From Demequinaceae bacterium (lineage in GTDB: Bacteria > Actinomycetota > Actinomycetes > Actinomycetales > Demequinaceae), in NCBI GenBank assembly GCA_965250005.1, contig OZ252279.1, forward strand, positions 1,560,001-1,592,000: a stretch of 32,000 bases of DNA, given 5' to 3'. Below, piece after piece: positions 356 through 9,613 of the stretch. Below the pieces are notes generated by a model that made no database searches, was not told the origin of the DNA, and saw only the letters and a list, made by a program, of their open reading frames with translations. The position numbers and the translations under genes are program-made. Each line of letters starts with the position of its first letter. The stretch's first letter is position 1.

Positions 356-540
356 AGTCGTCCTCGATTCGTCCTTCTACACGCTACCGTTGGCGGTCGG
401 CAACCGCTCGGGTTTCGGCGCCCCTTTTTGTGGCGGTGGATGTGGGATTCGTCGCCGGTCGCCCCGCGGCGCGCGATATGTTCGCTTGGCGCTAGCCTGG
501 TGCCAAGGACTCTTCCCGACTAACTGCCCCGGAGATGCTC

Positions 541-987
541 ATGCGATTGCCCAAGCCCCTTGGTGGCGTGGTTGCCGGCGCGCTCGCCCTCGCTAGTTGC
601 GCGCCCCCACCCTCGGTGGACTTGCTGGTACCAGGTGACTGCTTTGACTACTCGGAACTCACCGAGGGGATCGTCGGGATTCCTCCCGTCGACTGTTCAG
701 TCCCGCACGAAGCCGAGGTCTACCTGATTTTTGACCTCGAGGGTGTCAGTGAGGCCGACTACCTTGACGAATACGACGAGGACGATATCAACAGGCTCTC
801 CCAGGACGCGTGCCTTGCCGCGTTCCCCGATTACGTCGGTATCGATTACTGGGAGTCTGAGTATTACTACCTGTGGTTGTCGCCCACGCCGGAGGGCTGG
901 GCGGAGGGAGAAAGGGAAGTAGTCTGCTTCCTCGTTCCCGAACTTGGAGTGATGCTTACGGAATCACTCCAAGGGGCAGCGGGCTAG
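541..987 (+). CDS. Secreted lipoprotein with a septum-formation-family-like 4-Cys domain
   Basis: ORF 535..987. ATG 541 is preferred (GGAG at 531-534, 6 nt spacing). Signal peptide with lipobox LASC. Motifs GDCF...VDCSVPHEAEVY and DACL...VVCFL match the pattern I recall for actinobacterial septum formation family proteins (PF13845); not searched. Confidence 0.65.
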   Translation: MRLPKPLGGVVAGALALASCAPPPSVDLLVPGDCFDYSELTEGIVGIPPVDCSVPHEAEVYLIFDLEGVSEADYLDEYDEDDINRLSQDACLAAFPDYVGIDYWESEYYYLWLSPTPEGWAEGEREVVCFLVPELGVMLTESLQGAAG

Positions 988-1602: not shown

Positions 1603-2414
1603 GTCTCCACGGTACCGGTGCCGTCAGCGATGTCCACCACGACAGGTGCGTGATCCGAGGCGCCCTTTCCCTTTCGCTCGTCCCGGTCGATGGACGCCGC
1701 GATCGCACGGGGGGATAGAGCAGGGGAGGCGTACGCGAAATCGATACGCATCCCCTCTGCACGGGGAAAGCGGAGTTGCTTGTAGTCCCAGAACGTGTAC
1801 GTATGATCCTCGGGAAGGTAGCGGCGTGTGAGCTCCTCGAACCCCGCCTTCTCAAAGTCGTGGAACGCCGCGCGCGCCTCGGCGGTCACATGAGTCTGGG
1901 CTTCGGAGTCTTCAACGCTCCACATGTCCGCATCGCGCGGCGCCACATTCCAGTCGCCGACGAGCGCCACGGCCTCACCCGCGTCCGCCCACTCGCCAGC
2001 AGCCGCACGCAGGCGCCGAAGGAACTCCAGCTTGTAGGCGTAATGAGGGTCGGCTAGCCCGCGACCGTTGGGTACGTACAGGCTCCACACCCTCACCCCG
2101 CCGCAGGTCGCACCCATCGCGCGCGCCTCAATAACCTCTTCTTGGCCGGGCTTGCCGAATGACGGCTGGCCGGGAAAGTCGCGGACTACATGGTCCAAGC
2201 CCACTCGTGACGCGATCGCGACGCCGTTCCACTGATTGAGACCGTGGACCTCGACCTCGTAGCCAGCTAGTACGAACGGTTCGTACGGAAACTGATCTGG
2301 TTTGCACTTAATCTCCTGCATGGCCAGGACGTCGGTGTCACTCTTCTCGAGCCACGCGAGCACCCGCTCCTGGCGGGCGCGAATGGAGTTGACGTTCCAG
2401 GTGGCGAGGCGCAT
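1599..2414 (-). CDS. xthA: Exodeoxyribonuclease III (AP endonuclease)
   Basis: 271 aa. MRLATWNVNSIRARQERVLAWL...DVLAMQEIKC...SDHAPVVVD is the typical ExoIII/EEP fold signature. Confidence 0.9.
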   Translation of the reverse strand: MRLATWNVNSIRARQERVLAWLEKSDTDVLAMQEIKCKPDQFPYEPFVLAGYEVEVHGLNQWNGVAIASRVGLDHVVRDFPGQPSFGKPGQEEVIEARAMGATCGGVRVWSLYVPNGRGLADPHYAYKLEFLRRLRAAAGEWADAGEAVALVGDWNVAPRDADMWSVEDSEAQTHVTAEARAAFHDFEKAGFEELTRRYLPEDHTYTFWDYKQLRFPRAEGMRIDFAYASPALSPRAIAASIDRDERKGKGASDHAPVVVDIADGTGTVET

Positions 2415-2451
2415 TCCCCCACGCTACCCGCGGTGGTCGTAGCCTGGGTTC
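2415..2451. promoter_or_regulatory. 37-bp divergent intergenic region with two back-to-back -10 hexamers (leaderless xthA and SDR)
   Basis: Plus strand: TAGCCT 2440-2445, then 6 nt, then ATG 2452. Minus strand: TAGCGT (complement of 2421-2426), then 6 nt, then ATG 2414..2412. Confidence 0.5.
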
Positions 2452-3201
2452 ATGGCAACAGCACTGGTAACCGGAGCGAGCTCTGGCCTTGGGGCGGAAT
2501 TTGCTTGGCAACTTGGCAAGGCGGGTCACGACGTCGTTCTCGTCGCGCGCAATCACGCTCGGCTGGGAGAGGTGGCGGAAGAGGTGCGCAACGGCGCCGG
2601 CGTTCAGGCGGAAATCCTGGTGGCAGACCTCAGCGTTCGCAAAGATCTGGACGCCGTCGCCGCCCGACTTCGGGACGACAAGCGCCCCGTCGGGTTGTTG
2701 GTGAATAACGCCGGCTTTGGATTGGGTGAACCATTCGTCACCTCCGAGATTGCGCTGCAGGAAAACGCGCTCGATGTCATGGTCAAGGCAGTCATGGTGC
2801 TGTCCCACGCGGCCGCCGGCGCGATGGTCGCGCGGGGTCGAGGCGCCGTCCTCAACGTCTCGTCGATAGCATCGAGCATCGCGAGGGGGCCGTATTCGGC
2901 GCACAAGGCGTGGGTGGTGACCTTCACCGAAGCCCTTTCCACGGAACTCAAGGGGACCGGGGTCACGGCGACGGTCACTCGACCAGGGCTGGTGCGGACG
3001 GAATTCCAGGAGCGCGCGGGAATGGACCTATCTGCTCTTCCTGCGGCGGTGTGGATCGAAGCTGAGTCGGTTGTCGCCGCCTCGCTCGCGGCGGTTAGGC
3101 GCGGCCAGGTGGTGGTCACCCCGAGCGCGCGTTACGCCGTAGGTTCGAGCCTCGCAAAGGCCATTCCGCGTTCCCTGCTCCGCCGCATCACGTCCCGATA
3201 G
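2452..3201 (+). CDS. Short-chain dehydrogenase/reductase (SDR) family oxidoreductase
   Basis: 249 aa. N-terminal TGASSGLG Rossmann motif, NNAG, and a YSAHK catalytic Tyr-x3-Lys. Confidence 0.85.
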   Translation: MATALVTGASSGLGAEFAWQLGKAGHDVVLVARNHARLGEVAEEVRNGAGVQAEILVADLSVRKDLDAVAARLRDDKRPVGLLVNNAGFGLGEPFVTSEIALQENALDVMVKAVMVLSHAAAGAMVARGRGAVLNVSSIASSIARGPYSAHKAWVVTFTEALSTELKGTGVTATVTRPGLVRTEFQERAGMDLSALPAAVWIEAESVVAASLAAVRRGQVVVTPSARYAVGSSLAKAIPRSLLRRITSR

Positions 3202-3210
3202 GGTAGGCGC

Positions 3211-3777
3211 ATGACCGTCACCACCCCGCGTGAGCAGTTGCGTGATCTCATCAAGAAACGTGCCGTTGTGCATGGCCGCATCACGCTGTCGTCGGGCGAT
3301 CAAGCGGACTACTATGTTGATTTGCGGCGGATTACCCTCCACCACCGGGCAGGCCCGCTCGTGGGGCACGTCATGCTCGATGCGCTCGAAGAGGCGGGAT
3401 ACGGCCCGGCGGACGTGGATGCGATCGGTGGCTTGACCCTCGGCGCCGATCCTGTCGCAACCGCCGTGATGCATGCGGCTGCGTCACGCGGTCTCGATAT
3501 CGACGCATTCGTGGTGCGTAAAGAGGCCAAGGCTCATGGTTTGCAACGTCGTATCGAAGGCCCAGATGTCGAAGGCCGGCGCGTCGTCGCAGTAGAGGAC
3601 ACTTCGACAACGGGCGGCTCCGTCATGACCGCGGTCGACGCCTTGCGCGAGGCGGGTGCGAACGTGGTTGCCGTTGCGCAAATCGTGGATCGCGACACCG
3701 GTGCTCGGGAGAAGATCGAAGCCGCCGGCCTGCCCTACTTGTACCTGTTCGGGCTCGCGGATTTGGGACTCGAGTAG
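3211..3777 (+). CDS. pyrE: Orotate phosphoribosyltransferase
   Basis: 188 aa. ITLSSGDQADYYVDLR and the PRPP-binding loop VVAVEDTSTTGGS. Confidence 0.9.
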   Translation: MTVTTPREQLRDLIKKRAVVHGRITLSSGDQADYYVDLRRITLHHRAGPLVGHVMLDALEEAGYGPADVDAIGGLTLGADPVATAVMHAAASRGLDIDAFVVRKEAKAHGLQRRIEGPDVEGRRVVAVEDTSTTGGSVMTAVDALREAGANVVAVAQIVDRDTGAREKIEAAGLPYLYLFGLADLGLE

Positions 3778-3779
3778 CC

Positions 3780-4799
3780 ATGCACGTATTCAGTGCGCGA
3801 AACGTCATGGGCAGTGTCGTGGCCGTGTTTGGCGGGCTCGCGTGGTTTGCCTTCGAGTTCGACCTCTTCAGTTTCTTCGGCTTGTGGCCGTACATCATCA
3901 TTGGGGTGGGCCTCCTCGCGTTCGTCTCATGGTGGGGGTACGACGCTTACCGAGCCCGCAAACACCAGGTAGCAATGCGGGATTTCGCCCTGATGCACGG
4001 GTGGACCTACCAGAAGCGAAGTTCGGTCTGGGCCCGCAAGATGCGATCTTTTCCGTTTGGCCAGGGCACGCACCGGCGTGATCTTGCGGTATTGAGCGGC
4101 ACCTTTAACAAGATGCCATGTGCGACATTCGTTCACGAGTACGAAACGCGGACGGACGAACGTAAGTCGGCCACGCAAGTGTGGCAGGTCACCGCGATTT
4201 CGCTTCCTTTCCCACTCGCGACCGTTGACATCATTCCCGACGACATGGTTGCGAAGGTGGCCAAGTTGCTCGGCGGTCAAGACATTGACTTTGAGTCCGC
4301 GGAGTTCAACGCAAAGTGGCGAGTCAAGGCCGGAAACTCCAAGTACGCCCATGACATCGTGCACCCGCGAATGATGGAGCGCCTCAACAAGTACGACGCG
4401 CGGGGGCTGGCAATCCGGGTCGAGGGCGACGTCGTCCTCGCGTGGCAGGCGGGGCGTCAGCCGAACGACTCGCTCGCGCGCCGGCTGGGAGTGTTGACCT
4501 CGGTCGCGCGGCTCATACCTGAGTTCGTCTATCGTGAGTTCGCAGCGATTCACGTCCGGGCCGACGAGCGAATCTCCGAGGCGGAGTCAGATGCGCCAGA
4601 GTGGGCCCGCAGCACCACGGCGCTGGTTGACGGCAAGTACAACGCGGAGCTCGCTGATCCCAAGTATGACAAGAAGCTTGAGCCGCGAAACACGGCCGCC
4701 AAGCTGGATAAAGGATCTATGGTGAGCCTATTTCCCGAGGGGTTCTTTACGGGCGGCGTCGACGGCCTTGGCGGCATCGCCTCCGGCTGGGATAACTAG
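3780..4799 (+). CDS. LemA-associated membrane-anchored protein of unknown function, paralog 1 (possibly DUF3137-like)
   Basis: 339 aa, two N-terminal TM helices. Motifs HGWTY, FPFGQG, FNAKWRV, LAWQAG and IPEFVYRE are shared colinearly with ORFs 4968..5726 and 6393..7394. Starts 2 nt after the pyrE stop (an alternative ATG is at 3807). Confidence 0.7.
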   Translation: MHVFSARNVMGSVVAVFGGLAWFAFEFDLFSFFGLWPYIIIGVGLLAFVSWWGYDAYRARKHQVAMRDFALMHGWTYQKRSSVWARKMRSFPFGQGTHRRDLAVLSGTFNKMPCATFVHEYETRTDERKSATQVWQVTAISLPFPLATVDIIPDDMVAKVAKLLGGQDIDFESAEFNAKWRVKAGNSKYAHDIVHPRMMERLNKYDARGLAIRVEGDVVLAWQAGRQPNDSLARRLGVLTSVARLIPEFVYREFAAIHVRADERISEAESDAPEWARSTTALVDGKYNAELADPKYDKKLEPRNTAAKLDKGSMVSLFPEGFFTGGVDGLGGIASGWDN

Positions 4800-4967
4800 G
4801 GCCCGAGGACCATGAACCGCTTGCCTCTGAAGATCGTCACGTCGGTCCAGTCCATTGCACTCGTTCTCGACGCCTTCGCGCACAGGGTGAACGTTCCTGC
4901 GGGTGCGGCCCGGCTCAATCCCCATCACCTGTGGCGCCAATACGGCGCAGTGAGCAGGTAGCCGCAC

Positions 4968-5726
4968 ATGCGATTTCGAGTGAGCGGAATCAACGTTGCG
5001 TTGGCCGTTCTGACGGCTGCGGCGGGGATTGGCGTACTGGTGTTTTTTCCGGACGCCCCGAACGTCATGAAGGGATTGGCCATTGTCGGCGTCGCTGCCA
5101 TTGCGCTGGCGATCGCCCTCACTGTTCGGTACGCCCTTACGCGCGACTTCCAGCGCCTAGCCATGTGGGCTGGACTACGTGGCTGGACGTTCTCAGGTAG
5201 CGATGCAAGTCTTCGCGAACGCTTTCACGTGTACCCATTCGGGTCGGGGATTGGTGGCCGCGTAGATAACGTGTTGCGCGGCACGTATCGGTTCCATGAA
5301 TGTGTGACCTTCACCTACTCGACCGCCAAGCCCGCGCCGCAGTTCTACCAGGTGACCCTTGTCGAGCTCGATGCGGACATCCCCGCCTTCGAACTTCTGC
5401 CCGAAGACGCGATCGCTGCTGCCGCAAAGCTCGTGGGCGGACAGGACCTCAAGGTTGGAGACAAGACCTTTGACGACCGATGGCGGATCAGTGCGATGGA
5501 CCCAGACTTCGTCATGAAGATTCTGAACTCGCGGCTGCGGCATCGTCTCGATCGAAAGGACATCCACGGCATGCCCATCGCGGGAGACGGGCGCGCGATC
5601 CTCACCTGGCAGGCGGGACCAGCTGGGGTGCGACGGATGAGTCATCGACTCGACGTCCTGATCGCGGTTGCCGAAGCTATCCCTGACGAACTGTGGAAGG
5701 TTGTCGCTGCGCCGCGACGGTTCTGA
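4968..5726 (+). CDS. LemA-associated membrane-anchored protein of unknown function, paralog 2
   Basis: 252 aa, two N-terminal TM helices. Motifs RGWTF, YPFGSG, FDDRWRI, LTWQAG, IPDELWKV. Confidence 0.7.
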   Translation: MRFRVSGINVALAVLTAAAGIGVLVFFPDAPNVMKGLAIVGVAAIALAIALTVRYALTRDFQRLAMWAGLRGWTFSGSDASLRERFHVYPFGSGIGGRVDNVLRGTYRFHECVTFTYSTAKPAPQFYQVTLVELDADIPAFELLPEDAIAAAAKLVGGQDLKVGDKTFDDRWRISAMDPDFVMKILNSRLRHRLDRKDIHGMPIAGDGRAILTWQAGPAGVRRMSHRLDVLIAVAEAIPDELWKVVAAPRRF

Positions 5727-5801
5727 TCCGCGGTTGTAGTGGGCAAAATGCGCGAGTCCCGATAGCATCGGACCAGAAACCATCTCGAAGGAGTCTCAAC
5801 C

Positions 5802-6365
5802 ATGGATCCATTGACACTCGGCATCATTGCGTTCGTCGTGATCGCAGCCCTATGGGCGGTAGGCCAGTACAACGGCCTGGTTAAGCTCCGCAACCTGGTC
5901 CAGGAAGCATGGCGCCAGATCGACGTCGAACTCCAGCGACGCCACGACCTGATCCCCAACCTTGTCGAGACCGTCAAGGCATACGCCAAGCACGAGAAGT
6001 CCACGTTCGAGGCAGTGACCAAGGCACGGACCATGGCCGCCAAGCCTGGCTCCGGCCCCGCCGAGCAGGCTGGTCAAGAGAACATGCTTACCCAGGCACT
6101 CGGGAAGCTGTTCGCTGTAGCCGAGGATTACCCTGAGCTCAAGGCCGACAAGAACTTTCAACAGTTGCAGGCGGAGCTCACCAATACGGAAGACCGCATC
6201 GCCGCTGGCCGTCGCTTCTACAACGCGAACGTGCGCAGCATGAACACTAAGGTCGAGACCTTTCCGACGAACATCATCGCCAACATGTTTGGTTTCAAGC
6301 GCGAAGAGTACTTCGAGACCGAAGACCCGGCCGTCCGCAGCGTTCCCGACGTTTCGTTCGAGTAA
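5802..6365 (+). CDS. lemA: LemA family membrane protein
   Basis: 187 aa. N-terminal TM helix, then YNGLVKLRNLVQEAWRQIDVELQRRHDLIPNLVETVKAYAKHEK...RRFYNANV, the canonical LemA signature. AAGGAG lies 8 nt upstream of the ATG. Confidence 0.9.
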   Translation: MDPLTLGIIAFVVIAALWAVGQYNGLVKLRNLVQEAWRQIDVELQRRHDLIPNLVETVKAYAKHEKSTFEAVTKARTMAAKPGSGPAEQAGQENMLTQALGKLFAVAEDYPELKADKNFQQLQAELTNTEDRIAAGRRFYNANVRSMNTKVETFPTNIIANMFGFKREEYFETEDPAVRSVPDVSFE

Positions 6366-6392
6366 CTGCTCCGGTCCGAGAGGTCCGCAACA

Positions 6393-7394
6393 ATGACTGC
6401 CGGAACTGTCTTCCTGCTCGGGTTCGCGGGTTTTGCGGCGTTGCTCGTATGGCTGGGCGTGAAGTCTTCGAAGGCTTCGAAGGCGCGTCGCGCGACGAAC
6501 GAGAAAGTCCTCAAGGAACGTGGCTGGTCCCTGATTCCCACGGCTCCCGACCTGATCGACGAGGGCAACGCCCACCCGTTCCGCCAGGGCCGAGAGCGAA
6601 ATGCTACCAACGCCATTCGAAGCGGGCACCGCAAGTTCCCGTTCGTCTCATTTGAGTACGCATATGTTGCGGAGAGCAAGGACGACGACGGCAAGGTCCA
6701 CCGCAGCCATGGCAAGTACAACGTCACCTCGATCGAGCTCAAGGGCGCGATCGACCAGATCAAGTTCATGCCTGAGGGCATGTGGGACGGCAAATGGGAC
6801 CTCGATATGGAGTCCGACGACTTCAACAAGAAGTGGAAGGTCCTAGCGAAGGAGAAGCGGCTCGCGCACGCTATCCTCGCGCCCACAGTTATTGCGCTGA
6901 TGGTCGATCCCAAAACGCCCAAGATGCCAATCATCTTTGAGCCTGGACGCTTATGGACCTACCGCTCAGGTAGCCACGACCTGGGCAAACTTGATCGTGC
7001 GCTCGAAACTCTTGTGGGCATCGCAGAGCACATTCCGGCGTTCGTCTACAAGGAGGCCCGCAAGGGCTCCAAACTCGCGAAGTACGTCGAGCCTGCGGCC
7101 CTCGTGGACGATCCGCAGGCCGTCGTTCCGCCGGTCGCTCCGGTGCGCAAACCTGGCAGGGGCGTCGGTGGAACAAACCGGCGATCGGGCGGCGCATCTA
7201 CCGCCGCCGGGAAATCGAGCCGAAGCGTGGGCGGCACCAATCGATCGTTGTCGAACAAGAAGTCGTCCGCCAAACCTAAGGCGGCGTCGAAGGCCAAGCC
7301 GAGCGGCCGCGCTAGGGGCGGCTCGGGCCGGCCAGTTGCACCTAAGTCTGCTGCGCGCAGGTCACGCGGCGGGGCTGCGCCACCCAAGAAGTAG
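6393..7394 (+). CDS. LemA-associated membrane-anchored protein, paralog 3, with a Lys/Arg-rich low-complexity C-terminal tail
   Basis: 333 aa, one N-terminal TM helix. Motifs RGWSL, HPFRQG, FNKKWKV, LWTYRSG, IPAFVYKE. The last 83 residues hold 23 Lys/Arg and no Asp/Glu. Confidence 0.7.
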   Translation: MTAGTVFLLGFAGFAALLVWLGVKSSKASKARRATNEKVLKERGWSLIPTAPDLIDEGNAHPFRQGRERNATNAIRSGHRKFPFVSFEYAYVAESKDDDGKVHRSHGKYNVTSIELKGAIDQIKFMPEGMWDGKWDLDMESDDFNKKWKVLAKEKRLAHAILAPTVIALMVDPKTPKMPIIFEPGRLWTYRSGSHDLGKLDRALETLVGIAEHIPAFVYKEARKGSKLAKYVEPAALVDDPQAVVPPVAPVRKPGRGVGGTNRRSGGASTAAGKSSRSVGGTNRSLSNKKSSAKPKAASKAKPSGRARGGSGRPVAPKSAARRSRGGAAPPKK

Positions 7395-7403
7395 GCGGAT
7401 TGC

Positions 7404-8048
7404 CTAGGCATTGGTGGCCTGAAGGCGGTGGCGGATGAACTCGATGATGATGGGAAGTAGCGACACACCTATGACCGTGAAAACTGCGAGCTGGTAGTTG
7501 TCCTTGATGGCCTGAACATTGCCGAGCGAATAGCCGATGAGTGTGACTCCTACGCCCCACACGGCTGCGCCGATCGCATTGAACAGAGTGAAGCGCGGCC
7601 AGGGCATCTTTCCGACGCCAGCCGCGACCGGGATGTACGTGCGCACGAACGGCACGAACTGGCCCATGACGATGGCCCGCCCACCATATTTGTCGAAAAA
7701 TGCGTGGGTCTTGTCGATGTATGCCTTCTTGAAGAAACGCGAGTCTGGACGCTGGAAGATCTGCGGACCGACGATGCGACCTAGCCAATAGCCGATTTGC
7801 GGTCCGAGCAGTGCTGCAAGCCCGGTCACCGTGACAACAACACCGATTGAATAGGGAATGTCGCCGGTCGCGGTGAACACGCCAGCGGTGAAGAGTAGCG
7901 AGTCGCCTGGCAGGAACGGGAATAGCAGTCCGGTCTCGATGATGATGACGGCTGAGATTCCCCATAGGGCCCACGACCCGAACCAGGAGATGAGGTTTTC
8001 TGGGTCGAGCCACGACGGCCCGAACGCGGGAAGGGTGCTGTTGATCAT
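7404..8048 (-). CDS. dedA: DedA family (VTT domain) membrane protein
   Basis: 214 aa, multi-TM. ETGLLFPFLPGDSLLFTAG is the DedA motif. TAGGCT (complement of 8055-8060) lies 6 nt upstream of ATG 8048. Confidence 0.85.
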   Translation of the reverse strand: MINSTLPAFGPSWLDPENLISWFGSWALWGISAVIIIETGLLFPFLPGDSLLFTAGVFTATGDIPYSIGVVVTVTGLAALLGPQIGYWLGRIVGPQIFQRPDSRFFKKAYIDKTHAFFDKYGGRAIVMGQFVPFVRTYIPVAAGVGKMPWPRFTLFNAIGAAVWGVGVTLIGYSLGNVQAIKDNYQLAVFTVIGVSLLPIIIEFIRHRLQATNA

Positions 8049-8144
8049 CGAGCCAGCCTAGGGCCTGTCTTGGCAGTTGTGCGCATTGTGGTCCGATCGG
8101 CCAGGCAGGTGAGAGTGAACGGCAGGCGGCGATACGATCACGGT

Positions 8145-8954
8145 GTGGATGGCAACTTGGCCGCAGTAGCGACATTTGTGGCGCACACGCGCGCCTGGCG
8201 CGCACATAAAATCCGTCGCCCCAGTTTCGCCCCACTGAGCGCCTTTCGCTATGCGCGCGACCTGCACGTCGACATTCCGGTCGGGCTGCTGGTCATCCCG
8301 GGCCGCGAAAAGTACGCTCCGCGCGCCGCACGCGCGTGGCTCGACTGGTTTCCGCGGATTAGTGCGCGAGACCTTCGGGTTGGCGTGGTTGGCGGGGTCA
8401 TTCGCGACGAGACACTCGCAGAGAAAGCTCGAATGGCTACGTTTCTTCCATTCGAGTTCACCGCTGTGGACACCCGACGCAAGGGTGTGGCACGCGCTGC
8501 TGAGCGTGTCGTGACCCCGGACGACGGACCGGGTGGATTGTGGTCCGTGCGTTTCCGGCGAGTACCTGACACGGCGCTCGTCCCTGCTCCAGAGATCCCC
8601 GACGCGATGAGGAATCTTGTGCGCGCGCTCGAGAACGCCAATGCCGTGGCGATCACGGAGAAGTTATTGCAGCAATGGACGCCCTACCTTGATCAGGCTA
8701 TCGCCACGCTTAGGGGCCGTGGTGAGGCTGCCACCTCTGGTGACATTCTGCCTCGCCGGGGTTATTCGGCTGATGCGCACCGGCTGGTAACCGCTGCGAC
8801 CCAAGCTTGGGTGCTCGGCGGAATTATGTCCTGGAACGACCACGAGCCGCGCGGCAAGGAGATTGCCTCCATGTATTATGCCGCGACCGCCGACTTGTAC
8901 GGATGCCTCATCGAGGCCGTAGCCAGCGCCGTCAATAACGGCCTGGATAAGTGA
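8145..8954 (+). CDS. Conserved-looking hypothetical protein (start uncertain)
   Basis: ORF 8070..8954. The first ~25 codons are Arg-rich and look non-coding. GTG 8145 is in frame and preceded by TACGAT (8133-8138) plus 6 nt, matching the leaderless pattern seen elsewhere. The stop overlaps the GTG of the next gene (GTGA at 8951-8954). No family recognised. Confidence 0.5.
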   Translation: MDGNLAAVATFVAHTRAWRAHKIRRPSFAPLSAFRYARDLHVDIPVGLLVIPGREKYAPRAARAWLDWFPRISARDLRVGVVGGVIRDETLAEKARMATFLPFEFTAVDTRRKGVARAAERVVTPDDGPGGLWSVRFRRVPDTALVPAPEIPDAMRNLVRALENANAVAITEKLLQQWTPYLDQAIATLRGRGEAATSGDILPRRGYSADAHRLVTAATQAWVLGGIMSWNDHEPRGKEIASMYYAATADLYGCLIEAVASAVNNGLDK

Positions 8955-9613
8955 CGGGGCCAACGGAGCGTCCTGATCCGCCAATGGTGGGCGCTGAGGA
9001 GGTTGGCGTCGGGCCATGGGACGGGCCGCCTCGGATGGGTGACCACTGGGACACCGAGCTGCTGGCCGAGGGCGACCGGCGCAACGTCGCGGACAGGTAT
9101 CGCTACTGGCTCCACGACGCGATCGTCGCCGATCTCGACGAGCGGCGGCATCCGTTCCACATTGCGATCGAGAACTGGCAGCACGATTTCAACATTGGGT
9201 CAGTGGTCCGAACAGCGAACGCGTTCCTCGCTTGTGAGGTGCACATCATCGGTAACAGACGGTGGAACCGCCGCGGGGCGATGGTGACAGACCGCTATCA
9301 GCACATTCGCCATCATCCGACGGTCGAGGAGTTTGCCAGCTGGGCGGGGGAGGCCAAACTCGCGGTGATCGGGATCGATAACCTCCCGGGCAGCATGCCA
9401 CTCGAAACATTTGAGCTTCCACGTGCCAGCATATTGGTGTTCGGTCAGGAGAGCGTCGGCTTGAGCCTGGCCGTGCGCAACGCTGCCGCGGCGACGCTCG
9501 CCATAGGTCAGTACGGGTCCACTCGCAGTATCAACGCGGGAGCCGCAGCGGCAATCGCGATGCATACCTGGATCCGTCAGCATGGCGATGTCGACGCTGG
9601 TCATGCCGGTTAG
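8951..9613 (+). CDS. TrmH/SpoU family RNA 2'-O-methyltransferase
   Basis: 220 aa. NIGSVVRTANAF..., LVFGQESVGLS and STRSINAGAAAAIAMH are SPOUT methylase motifs. Confidence 0.8.
   Translation: MTGPTERPDPPMVGAEEVGVGPWDGPPRMGDHWDTELLAEGDRRNVADRYRYWLHDAIVADLDERRHPFHIAIENWQHDFNIGSVVRTANAFLACEVHIIGNRRWNRRGAMVTDRYQHIRHHPTVEEFASWAGEAKLAVIGIDNLPGSMPLETFELPRASILVFGQESVGLSLAVRNAAAATLAIGQYGSTRSINAGAAAAIAMHTWIRQHGDVDAGHAG

What the first reader, a model, noticed from the sequence alone, without database searches (positions are those of the whole stretch)
3780..7394. LemA embedded among three divergent paralogs of an uncharacterised membrane-anchored family, between pyrE and dedA
Seen: ORFs 3780-4799, 4968-5726 and 6393-7394 share one architecture, 1-2 N-terminal TM helices followed by a ~200-aa soluble domain. 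They also share five colinear motifs: HGWTY/RGWTF/RGWSL; FPFGQG/YPFGSG/HPFRQG; FNAKWRV/FDDRWRI/FNKKWKV; LAWQAG/LTWQAG/LWTYRSG; IPEFVYRE/IPDELWKV/IPAFVYKE. Outside these motifs they are strongly diverged and differ in their C-terminal extensions. All three are on the + strand around a canonical LemA gene (5802-6365), and the first starts 2 nt after the pyrE stop. Knowledge: LemA has no established biochemical function and usually occurs in small modules with other unknown membrane-associated proteins. Inference: one LemA with three specialised partners suggests a multi-component envelope module. Its position between pyrE and the dedA-trmH-fba-purA block suggests an accessory insertion into a conserved backbone.
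Basis: partly seen in the sequence, partly recalled or inferred. Interest (0 to 1): 0.7.

Follow-up and report, generated by a model that had tools for sequence, protein, structure and literature searches.

The report
TtfA-like paralogs paired with LemA
The three membrane-anchored paralogs around LemA are real; they are distant relatives of TtfA, the essential helper of the mycobacterial mycolic-acid exporter MmpL3, and across many bacteria this family sits almost always directly upstream of a LemA gene, which gives two poorly understood protein families a testable functional link.

Summary
ORFs 3780-4799 (A), 4968-5726 (B) and 6393-7394 (C) are paralogs (BLASTP E 2e-33, 7e-19, 1e-11). They flank a full-length LemA gene (5802-6365), and all five motifs are present.

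They are peripheral DUF3137 members. AlphaFold models of A and B each have one strong PDB match, the crystal structure of TtfA (6T84). TM-trimmed profile-profile comparison with a diverse TtfA family gives 96.6% probability (E 5.6e-10) over 167 columns, against a maximum score of 34 in shuffled controls.

The gene pair 'D then LemA' is close to universal. It occurs in 74 of 79 actinobacterial genome loci and in 60 of 65 informative metagenome loci.

pyrE-D-LemA is a conserved arrangement in Demequina, Cellulomonas, Actinotalea, Kribbella and Nocardioidaceae, so it is not an insertion. Copy number (1 to 4) varies through lineage-specific tandem duplication.

TtfA genes lie in the same SDR/pyrE/SpoU neighbourhood but have no LemA next to them.

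Best reading: these are membrane-tethered, cytoplasm-facing TtfA-like adaptors that work with LemA. The client machinery is unknown, and D-LemA binding is inferred, not shown. I found no paper that links TtfA or DUF3137 with LemA.

The parts
2452..3201 (+). Short-chain dehydrogenase (SDR), a syntenic anchor upstream of pyrE
   Evidence: PF00106 adh_short, E 2e-38. Orthologs at 42-49% identity lie directly downstream of ttfA in all six TtfA loci examined.
3211..3777 (+). pyrE (orotate phosphoribosyltransferase-type gene); gene A follows 2 nt later
   Evidence: PF00156, E 1e-8. A pyrE homolog lies directly upstream of the first D copy in at least 65 of 79 related genome loci.
3780..4799 (+). Paralog A: two TM segments, a TtfA-like / DUF3137-like cytoplasmic domain (about residues 62-262), a conserved C-terminal helix extension and an acidic tail. 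It is the ortholog of the single pyrE-adjacent copy of Demequina species.
   Evidence: AF2 pLDDT 84; 6T84 E 3.4e-6, TMt 0.72.
4878..4943 (+). Possible decayed remnant of the C-terminus (motif 5 region) of a further D copy, in the 169-nt A-B spacer
   Evidence: tblastn with the second D copy of the relative L001 gives 9/22 identities, E 9e-5 against this 300-nt target only. This is weak.
4968..5726 (+). Paralog B: two TM segments and a TtfA-like domain, with no tail. It is a younger paralog confined to the window's Demequinaceae subclade.
   Evidence: AF2 pLDDT 87.6; 6T84 E 4.1e-7, TMt 0.68.
5802..6365 (+). LemA: one N-terminal TM helix plus a full-length LemA domain
   Evidence: PF04011, 204.6 bits, model positions 1-149 of 149. 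Three K/R residues follow the TM segment.
6393..7394 (+). Paralog C: one TM segment, a TtfA-like domain, and a 108-aa basic G/S/A/K/R-rich tail. It belongs to a Demequinaceae-wide clade of copies placed downstream of LemA.

Best explanation
A, B and C are tandem paralogs of a widespread bacterial family, the DUF3137 superfamily, here called D. The cytoplasmic alpha/beta domain of D is homologous to that of mycobacterial TtfA.

Each D protein is tethered to the cytoplasmic membrane by one or two N-terminal TM helices, and its domain faces the cytoplasm. D genes are co-expressed with LemA, and in Actinomycetota with pyrE. LemA is a single-pass protein with a helical-bundle domain predicted on the same face.

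I propose that D and LemA assemble into a membrane-face scaffold or adaptor that docks onto an integral-membrane client and controls it. TtfA does this for the lipid exporter MmpL3. The three paralogs would be alternative adaptor subunits that share one LemA and differ in their tails: acidic and Trp-terminated in A, absent in B, basic and disordered in C.

Shown here: paralogy, the fold match and profile homology to TtfA, the near-universal D-then-LemA gene order with short or overlapping junctions, conserved synteny with pyrE, and recurrent duplication.

Inferred: topology, physical D-LemA contact, the adaptor role and the nature of the client.

My confidence is about 0.9 for the homology and linkage statements and about 0.35 for the adaptor mechanism. 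The overall figure is a blend of the two.
For: Paralogy.

DUF3137 relationship.

Fold: both independent AF2 models have TtfA 6T84 as the only hit at E <= 0.001. Probability is 1.00 and TM normalised to the target is 0.72 and 0.68.

Sequence homology:
- The A1 profile finds 6t84_A in register at E 0.29, one of only two hits in the whole PDB.
- hhalign of A1 against 18 mycolicibacterial TtfA sequences gives 74% probability and E 2.7e-5.
- The TM-trimmed D profile against 87 diverse TtfA-family sequences gives 96.6% probability, E 5.6e-10 and 167 aligned columns.
- Controls score far lower than the real 67.9: reversed 12.5, column-shuffled at most 19.2, block-shuffled at most 33.9.
- The TM-free D HMM hits 32 of 147 TtfA representatives.

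Shared architecture with TtfA: an N-terminal TM segment, an essential domain of about 180-200 aa, a disordered C-terminal tail, and a C-terminus shown to be cytoplasmic by a mCitrine fusion (PMC6593404). The D proteins have K/R-rich segments after the last TM.

Linkage with LemA:
- 74 of 79 actinobacterial loci.
- 60 of 65 informative metagenome loci have LemA directly downstream.
- Distant members P0054 and P0058 overlap LemA by 4 nt.
- The median D-LemA gap is 54 nt; 70 of 77 gaps are <= 100 nt, and 10 are overlaps of 4 or 1 nt.

Synteny: ttfA lies beside the same SDR, pyrE and SpoU genes.

LemA-like domains have been proposed as cytoplasmic-face scaffolds. One example is ML0451c with PimA and EphE (bioRxiv 10.64898/2026.07.15.738315).
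Against: - Identity to TtfA is only about 12-14%. NCBI's curated models gave no TtfA hit for A, B or C.
- The Pfam TtfA model PF28092 is absent from the local library, so it could not be tested.
- None of the six TtfA loci carries LemA, so TtfA biology may not transfer to LemA-linked D proteins.
- The host lineage (Demequinaceae, Micrococcales) makes no mycolic acids (my own knowledge). No MmpL gene is present in the 32-kb window.
- Nothing here shows that D and LemA touch each other.
- LemA topology is disputed in the literature. PMC3905215 places the LemA C-terminal domain outside the cytoplasm. If that is right, contact could occur only through the TM helices.
- The near-invariant polar residues of LemA-linked D proteins (D168, E172, S173, R197, E200 in A) are not conserved in TtfA. 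They could mark an active site rather than an interface.
Confidence: 0.55

Rival explanations
1. D is an enzyme, for example one acting on a membrane lipid or a lipid-linked substrate. LemA would be its membrane partner or regulator, and TtfA would be a derived pseudo-enzyme that lost the catalytic residues.
For: A block of polar residues is invariant or nearly so from Actinomycetota to distant phyla: D..x..ES..F followed by HPRMME (D168, E172, S173, F176, P196, R197, E200 in A). In the hhalign alignment this block faces a non-conserved stretch of TtfA. The TtfA crystal structure reportedly shows no lipid-binding pocket (review PMC7458404).
Against: No fold or profile similarity to any known enzyme was found. 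Every PDB hit other than TtfA has E > 1e-3, and there is no Pfam or NCBIfam enzyme family hit. Conserved polar patches are just as typical of obligate protein interfaces, and the residues are lost exactly in the lineage that also lost LemA adjacency.
Confidence: 0.2
2. D-LemA is a module for membrane-protein biogenesis or quality control. It would be a chaperone or adaptor for multipass membrane proteins, or a regulator of an HtpX-type M48 protease, rather than a factor dedicated to lipid transport.
For: One distant locus reads LemA, M48 peptidase, D, LemA (L009). The model of B has as its second PDB hit human CCDC47, the TM-anchored cytosolic subunit of the PAT/TMCO1 translocon that chaperones multipass proteins. 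That hit has E 2.8e-3, probability 1.0 and 215 aligned columns; the chain identity was confirmed. TtfA itself acts through TM-helix contacts with a multipass protein (bioRxiv 10.1101/2025.11.14.688347).
Against: The CCDC47 match has low TM-scores (0.36-0.40). It was not found with the model of A and has no profile support (probability < 1%). No protease gene lies next to D-LemA in this window or in the actinobacterial loci.
Confidence: 0.15
3. The block is a recently acquired accessory or mobile insertion between pyrE and dedA, possibly a defence or stress island.
For: GC content is slightly lower (0.59-0.62) than in flanking regions (0.63-0.65). Copy number varies between relatives.
Against: The pyrE-D-LemA order is conserved over several actinobacterial families. 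There were no PADLOC hits. No mobile-element genes were seen in the called genes of related loci or among the window ORFs I scanned, and Rfam found nothing, tRNA families included, in 2000-9000. The NJ tree of D copies groups them largely by taxon.
Confidence: 0.03

Closest known systems
TtfA (TMM transport factor A; MSMEG_0736 / Rv0383c; PDB 6T84; Pfam PF28092 Treh_trans_TtfA)
   Same: Both have an N-terminal TM anchor, a cytoplasmic alpha/beta domain of about 180-200 aa with the same fold (Foldseek probability 1.0 for two models), and profile-profile homology across the whole domain. Both have a variable disordered C-terminal tail. Both genes lie in the SDR/pyrE/SpoU neighbourhood.
   Different: Identity is only 12-14%, and the curated NCBIfam models do not hit. 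D proteins carry the invariant DIDFES...HPRMME block, which TtfA lacks. D is encoded after pyrE and directly before LemA, whereas ttfA lies before the SDR and has no LemA next to it. A and B have two TM segments instead of one. The host makes no mycolic acids, so the TMM/MmpL3 role cannot be the same. TtfA was described as restricted to mycolate producers and without homologs of known function (PMC6593404).
DUF3137 (Pfam PF11335)
   Same: The conserved core motif region matches model positions 20-80. 35 of 38 relatives match at E <= 0.01, and some close homologs are named 'DUF3137 domain-containing protein' by NCBI.
   Different: A (25.2 bits), C (14.6 bits) and B (no hit) all fall below the gathering score of 26.1. 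The Pfam model covers only about a third of the domain. The family has no described function, and I found no published link to LemA or TtfA.
LemA family (PF04011), including MamQ and the LemA-like domain of ML0451c/Rv2609c
   Same: The window's LemA is a canonical full-length member with one N-terminal TM helix. LemA-like domains have been proposed as membrane-associated scaffolds or membrane-remodelling factors.
   Different: It is not MamQ (113 bits against a cut-off of 250). It has no NUDIX fusion. Here it is the fixed partner of D genes, an association I did not find described.
CCDC47 (PAT complex / TMCO1 translocon, PDB 6W6L chain 7)
   Same: It is a TM-anchored protein with a cytosolic globular domain and was the second Foldseek hit for the model of B (E 2.8e-3).
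   Different: TM-scores are low. The hit was not reproduced with the model of A, and there is no sequence-profile signal. It is a lead only.

Membership tests
DUF3137 (PF11335) | Pfam HMM score at or above the gathering threshold (26.1 bits) | tested here: not met
   A scores 25.2 bits, C scores 14.6 bits and B has no hit.
DUF3137 (PF11335) | Significant homology to proteins that pass the threshold (membership at superfamily level) | tested here: met
   P0055 scores 31.9 bits on PF11335 and is an E 1e-17 homolog of A. 35 of 38 aligned relatives match at E <= 0.01.
TtfA family (PF28092 / NCBI 'trehalose monomycolate transport factor TtfA') | Match to the family's curated sequence model | tested here: not met
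   The NCBIfam scan of A, B and C at E <= 1 gave no TtfA model. PF28092 is not in the local Pfam copy, because a bona fide TtfA (P0182) gets no Pfam hit. The Pfam part is therefore untestable.
TtfA family (PF28092 / NCBI 'trehalose monomycolate transport factor TtfA') | Same three-dimensional fold as the TtfA crystal structure 6T84 | tested here: met
   Foldseek: model A gives E 3.4e-6, probability 1.0, TMt 0.72. Model B gives E 4.1e-7, probability 1.0, TMt 0.68. In both cases this is the only hit at E <= 0.001. The queries are predicted models, not experimental structures.
TtfA family (PF28092 / NCBI 'trehalose monomycolate transport factor TtfA') | Remote sequence homology across the soluble domain | tested here: met
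   hhalign gives 96.6% probability, E 5.6e-10 and 167 columns. Shuffled controls reach a score of at most 34, against 67.9 for the real alignment.
TtfA family (PF28092 / NCBI 'trehalose monomycolate transport factor TtfA') | Architecture: N-terminal TM anchor, cytoplasmic domain, disordered C-terminal tail | tested here: met
   Hydrophobic segments and K/R flanks. Low pLDDT in the tail of A. The TtfA features come from PMC6593404. The topology here is a prediction only.
TtfA family (PF28092 / NCBI 'trehalose monomycolate transport factor TtfA') | Function: complex with MmpL3 and requirement for trehalose monomycolate export | not testable with these tools
   This needs experiments. The host lineage is not a mycolate producer (my own knowledge), so functional membership is unlikely.
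LemA (PF04011) | Full-length match to the LemA HMM above threshold, plus an N-terminal TM helix | tested here: met
   204.6 bits against a cut-off of 26.2, model positions 1-149 of 149. A hydrophobic segment spans residues 1-27.
MamQ (NCBIfam NF040966) | Score at or above the equivalog cut-off of 250 bits | tested here: not met
   113.3 bits.
Known anti-phage defence systems (PADLOC) | Any component matching a PADLOC model | tested here: not met
   No hit for A, B, LemA or C at E <= 0.1.

The most novel reading that the evidence does not exclude
D-LemA is the ancestral, pan-bacterial form of the TtfA system. [quoted passage not shown] In this reading mycobacterial TtfA is a derived D protein that lost its adjacent LemA. 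It may still work with a LemA-like protein such as Rv2609c/ML0451c. The invariant DIDFES/HPRMME patch would be the LemA-binding or substrate-sensing site. This would assign a first mechanistic role to both LemA and DUF3137, and it would give TtfA studies a tractable non-mycobacterial model.
Probability: 0.3. Interest if true: 0.8.

Novelty: new variant of a known kind. Interest (0 to 1): 0.6.

Why it matters
TtfA is essential in M. tuberculosis and belongs to the MmpL3 drug-target machinery. Its molecular role is unknown, and it was reported to have no homologs outside mycolate producers and an atypical fold. LemA is a very widespread bacterial family with no established function.

Three results give both fields concrete experiments:
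- The TtfA fold belongs to the large DUF3137 superfamily.
- That superfamily is almost always encoded directly upstream of LemA.
- In Actinomycetota the pair sits in the same pyrE neighbourhood as ttfA.

The experiments that follow are D-LemA complex modelling and pull-downs, cross-complementation of ttfA depletion, and a search for a LemA-type partner of TtfA. The results also improve the annotation of hundreds of 'hypothetical' genes. The three-paralog arrangement is a lineage-specific elaboration and matters less on its own.

Tried and rejected
- PADLOC scan: no defence-system match.
- Rfam scan of 2000-9000: nothing.
- Promoter/terminator scan: no promoter-like site, and terminator-like sites were not above shuffled expectation. 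It therefore says nothing about operon structure.
The Demequinaceae assignment rests on the names of the nearest homologs.
- The first TtfA retrieval, using a 55-aa fragment, returned only truncated proteins. I rebuilt a full-length TtfA from frameshifted contigs and searched again.
- Test for natural LemA-TtfA fusions: the long TtfA-like proteins (380-660 aa) have no Pfam domain in their N-terminal regions. The two I read (P0258, P0266) have long low-complexity, likely disordered N-terminal regions.
- Search for a recurrent third gene next to D-LemA in metagenome contigs: my simple gene caller was swamped by antisense shadow ORFs in high-GC DNA, so I abandoned it.
- The 294-aa ORF 8070-8954 against the 296-aa gene in the same slot of M. 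fortuitum: no tblastn match.
- CCDC47 similarity: profile comparison was negative. I keep it only as a lead.
- A LemA-C read-through pseudo-fusion for complex prediction: I considered it and did not run it. The tool folds single chains, refuses foreign sequences, and a single-sequence result would be unreliable.


Full report
**1. The observation**

The ORF list confirms four co-directional ORFs at the reported coordinates:
- A: 3780-4799, 339 aa
- B: 4968-5726, 252 aa
- LemA: 5802-6365, 187 aa
- C: 6393-7394, 333 aa

pyrE lies upstream (3211-3777) and a convergent DedA/VTT gene lies downstream (7404-8048, minus strand). LemA matches PF04011 end to end (204.6 bits).

A, B and C are clearly paralogs. 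A and B have two N-terminal hydrophobic segments and C has one. In all three, and in LemA, the segment after the last TM helix is rich in K/R. By the positive-inside rule this places the soluble domains in the cytoplasm (inference).

The tails differ. A's is acidic, B has none, and C has a 108-aa basic low-complexity tail.

**2. Family assignment**

A just misses the DUF3137 gathering score (25.2 against 26.1 bits). C is weaker and B has no hit. However, 35 of 38 aligned relatives match PF11335 at E <= 0.01, and NCBI names some homologs at 48-50% identity 'DUF3137 domain-containing protein [Demequinaceae]'. The three proteins are therefore peripheral members of the DUF3137 superfamily. The nearest relatives are from Demequinaceae (Micrococcales).

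**3. Relationship to TtfA**

An AF2 model of A (pLDDT 84) searched against the PDB has a single hit at E <= 0.001. It is 6T84, the crystal structure of mycobacterial TtfA (E 3.4e-6, probability 1.00, TM 0.72 normalised to the target). An independent model of B (pLDDT 87.6) gives the same top hit (E 4.1e-7, TM 0.68).

At the sequence level:
- The D-family profile finds 6t84_A in register, as one of only two PDB hits at E <= 10 (E 0.29).
- I rebuilt a TtfA sequence from frameshifted contigs, collected TtfA homologs and 147 diverse cluster representatives, and removed the TM segments from both families.
- hhalign then gives 96.6% probability, E 5.6e-10 and 167 aligned columns covering essentially the whole domain.
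- Reversed, column-shuffled and block-shuffled controls reach scores of 12.5, at most 19.2 and at most 33.9, against 67.9 for the real alignment.

The architecture is also the same. According to Fay et al., TtfA has an N-terminal TM helix, an essential region of residues 1-205, a cytoplasmic C-terminus and a disordered 73-aa tail. [quoted passage not shown]

I conclude that D proteins and TtfA are remote homologs. D proteins are not TtfA orthologs in function:
- The curated NCBI models do not hit.
- Identity is about 12-14%.
- The invariant D-family block DIDFES...HPRMME faces a non-conserved TtfA stretch.
- Demequinaceae make no mycolic acids (my own knowledge).

**4. Linkage with LemA**

A scan of one genome per species found 345 relatives. 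The 79 loci kept come from Demequina, Cellulomonas, Actinotalea, Kribbella, Nocardioidaceae and related MAGs. HMM mapping shows LemA next to D in 74 of the 79. The architectures, counted over those 79 genome loci (the window is not among them), are:

| Architecture | Loci |
|---|---|
| 1 D, LemA | 44 |
| 2 D, LemA | 12 |
| 1 D, LemA, 1 D | 12 |
| 2 D, LemA, 1 D (the window's own arrangement) | 2 |
| 4 D, LemA | 2 |
| 3 D, LemA, 1 D | 1 |
| 3 D, LemA | 1 |

An independent scan of metagenome contigs was seeded with distant DUF3137-like proteins (alignment A3). It gave 80 loci. Of the 65 with room downstream, 60 have LemA directly downstream and 1 has it directly upstream.

Two distant homologs, in genomes that look like other phyla from their neighbouring genes (not identified), overlap LemA by 4 nt. 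Over 77 junctions the median D-LemA gap is 54 nt, 70 gaps are <= 100 nt, and 10 are overlaps of 4 or 1 nt.

This is the signature of an obligate two-gene unit. I found no paper that mentions DUF3137 or TtfA together with LemA. That search covers open-access full text only.

**5. Not an insertion**

pyrE lies directly upstream of the first D copy in at least 65 of the 79 loci, often 2 nt away or overlapping. The pyrE-D-LemA order is therefore an old actinobacterial arrangement.

The NJ tree of D domains (approximate) shows:
- A is orthologous to the single pyrE-adjacent copy of Demequina species.
- C belongs to a Demequinaceae-wide clade of copies placed after LemA.
- B is a younger duplicate confined to the window's subclade.
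- Cellulomonas and Actinotalea lineages duplicated D independently.

A close relative, L001, has a further copy between A and B. The window's 169-nt A-B spacer holds a weak remnant of such a copy's C-terminus (4878-4943).

**6. Shared neighbourhood with ttfA**

In all six TtfA loci examined, ttfA is followed by an SDR that is 42-49% identical to window ORF 2452-3201. One locus reads TtfA-like, SDR, pyrE, SpoU. M. fortuitum reads ttfA, SDR, a 296-aa gene, SpoU. None has LemA. The window reads SDR, pyrE, A, B, LemA, C, dedA (reverse strand), a 294-aa gene, SpoU. The two families therefore occupy different slots of the same conserved block. This fits descent from a common ancestral gene in that block (inference).

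**7. Mechanism**

Shown:
- homology to TtfA
- the D-LemA gene pairing, with junctions that allow translational coupling
- recurrent duplication with diversified tails

Inferred: D and LemA form a complex on the cytoplasmic face that docks onto an integral-membrane client. The analogies are:
- TtfA, which reaches MmpL3 through TM-helix contacts mediated by MSMEG_0834 (bioRxiv 10.1101/2025.11.14.688347)
- the proposed scaffold role of the LemA-like domain of ML0451c for PimA and EphE (bioRxiv 10.64898/2026.07.15.738315)

The paralogs would be alternative adaptor subunits. A-type tails end in an acidic stretch with a conserved Trp across Demequinaceae. C's basic tail is recent and is shared only with one relative.

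The client is unknown. No MmpL gene lies in the window.

Rival readings are:
- a catalytic role for the invariant polar block
- a role in membrane-protein biogenesis or quality control, suggested by a LemA-M48-D-LemA locus and by a weak, unreplicated Foldseek hit of model B to CCDC47 of the PAT/TMCO1 translocon
- a mobile insertion, which the synteny data reject

LemA topology is disputed in the literature, and this is a real uncertainty for any model that relies on domain-domain contact.

**8. Verdict**

The locus itself is a lineage-specific elaboration (2 D, LemA, 1 D) of a widespread D-LemA unit. The value lies in the connection it exposes: DUF3137, TtfA and LemA.

I rate it a new variant of a known kind, with interest 0.6. 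The main caveats are:
- The fold evidence rests on predicted models.
- The curated TtfA Pfam model and its clan assignment could not be checked.
- No physical interaction has been shown.

Noticed in passing
window 4878-4943 (A-B spacer 4800-4967): The unusually long 169-nt spacer translates in one frame to AHRVNVPAGAARLNPHHLWRQY. This aligns (9/22) with the motif-5 end of the extra D copy that the relative L001 carries between A and B. It may be a relic of a lost fourth paralog.
   Followed up: partly
window 7170-7391 (C tail); L012 ortholog: C ends in a basic G/S/A/K/R-rich low-complexity tail with an internal repeat (GRGVGGTNRRSGG / SRSVGGTNRSLS). Only the closest relative shares such a tail; the other C-type copies stop right after the domain. 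TtfA tails are also basic (P/R-rich) and disordered.
   Followed up: partly
window 4550-4796 and A-type copies in L012-L035, L073: The pyrE-adjacent D copies across Demequinaceae carry a conserved C-terminal helix extension and then an acidic tail with a conserved Trp near the end (EDW, DRAW; GWDN in the window). It looks like a short docking motif.
   Followed up: partly
model of B (window 4968-5726) against PDB 6W6L chain 7: The second Foldseek hit is human CCDC47, the TM-anchored cytosolic subunit of the multipass-protein translocon (E 2.8e-3, probability 1.0, TM 0.36-0.40). It was not seen with the model of A, and a profile comparison was negative.
   Followed up: partly
window 2452-3201; L091-L096: The SDR upstream of pyrE has orthologs (42-49% identity) immediately downstream of ttfA in every mycobacterial or TtfA-like locus examined. 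The SDR may belong functionally to the D/TtfA neighbourhood.
   Followed up: partly
window 7394/7404; L001 12260-12263: C and the convergent DedA/VTT gene end 9 nt apart, and in L001 they overlap by 4 nt. A dedA homolog lies downstream of LemA on the opposite strand in about 53 of the 91 sequences scanned in that run (90 loci L001-L090 plus the window). DedA proteins are linked to lipid or lipid-carrier flipping (my own knowledge).
   Followed up: no
window 8070-8954: A 294-aa ORF with no Pfam hit overlaps the SpoU methylase gene by 4 nt (its end at 8954, the SpoU start at 8951). Homologs were detected in only 10 loci (the Demequinaceae set and the window). There is no tblastn match to the 296-aa gene in the same slot in M. 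fortuitum.
   Followed up: partly
L009 4419-7274; L160; L168; protein P0059: Unusual arrangements occur elsewhere. L009 reads LemA, M48 peptidase, D, LemA. L160 reads D, D, LemA, LemA. L168 has four D copies with no LemA in view. P0059 is a 404-aa protein with two D domains in one chain.
   Followed up: no
proteins P0258, P0266 (TtfA-family representatives): Some TtfA-like proteins have a very long disordered acidic region. In P0266 about 290 aa lie between the TM helix and the conserved domain. In P0258 about 190 aa precede the domain and no N-terminal TM helix is evident. They carry no recognisable extra Pfam domain.
   Followed up: no
window 535-987 and 991-1602: A Septum_form (PF13845) protein and a divergent neighbour lie upstream of the Exo_endo_phos and SDR genes. 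The same pair is conserved in the relatives L001 and L003.
   Followed up: no
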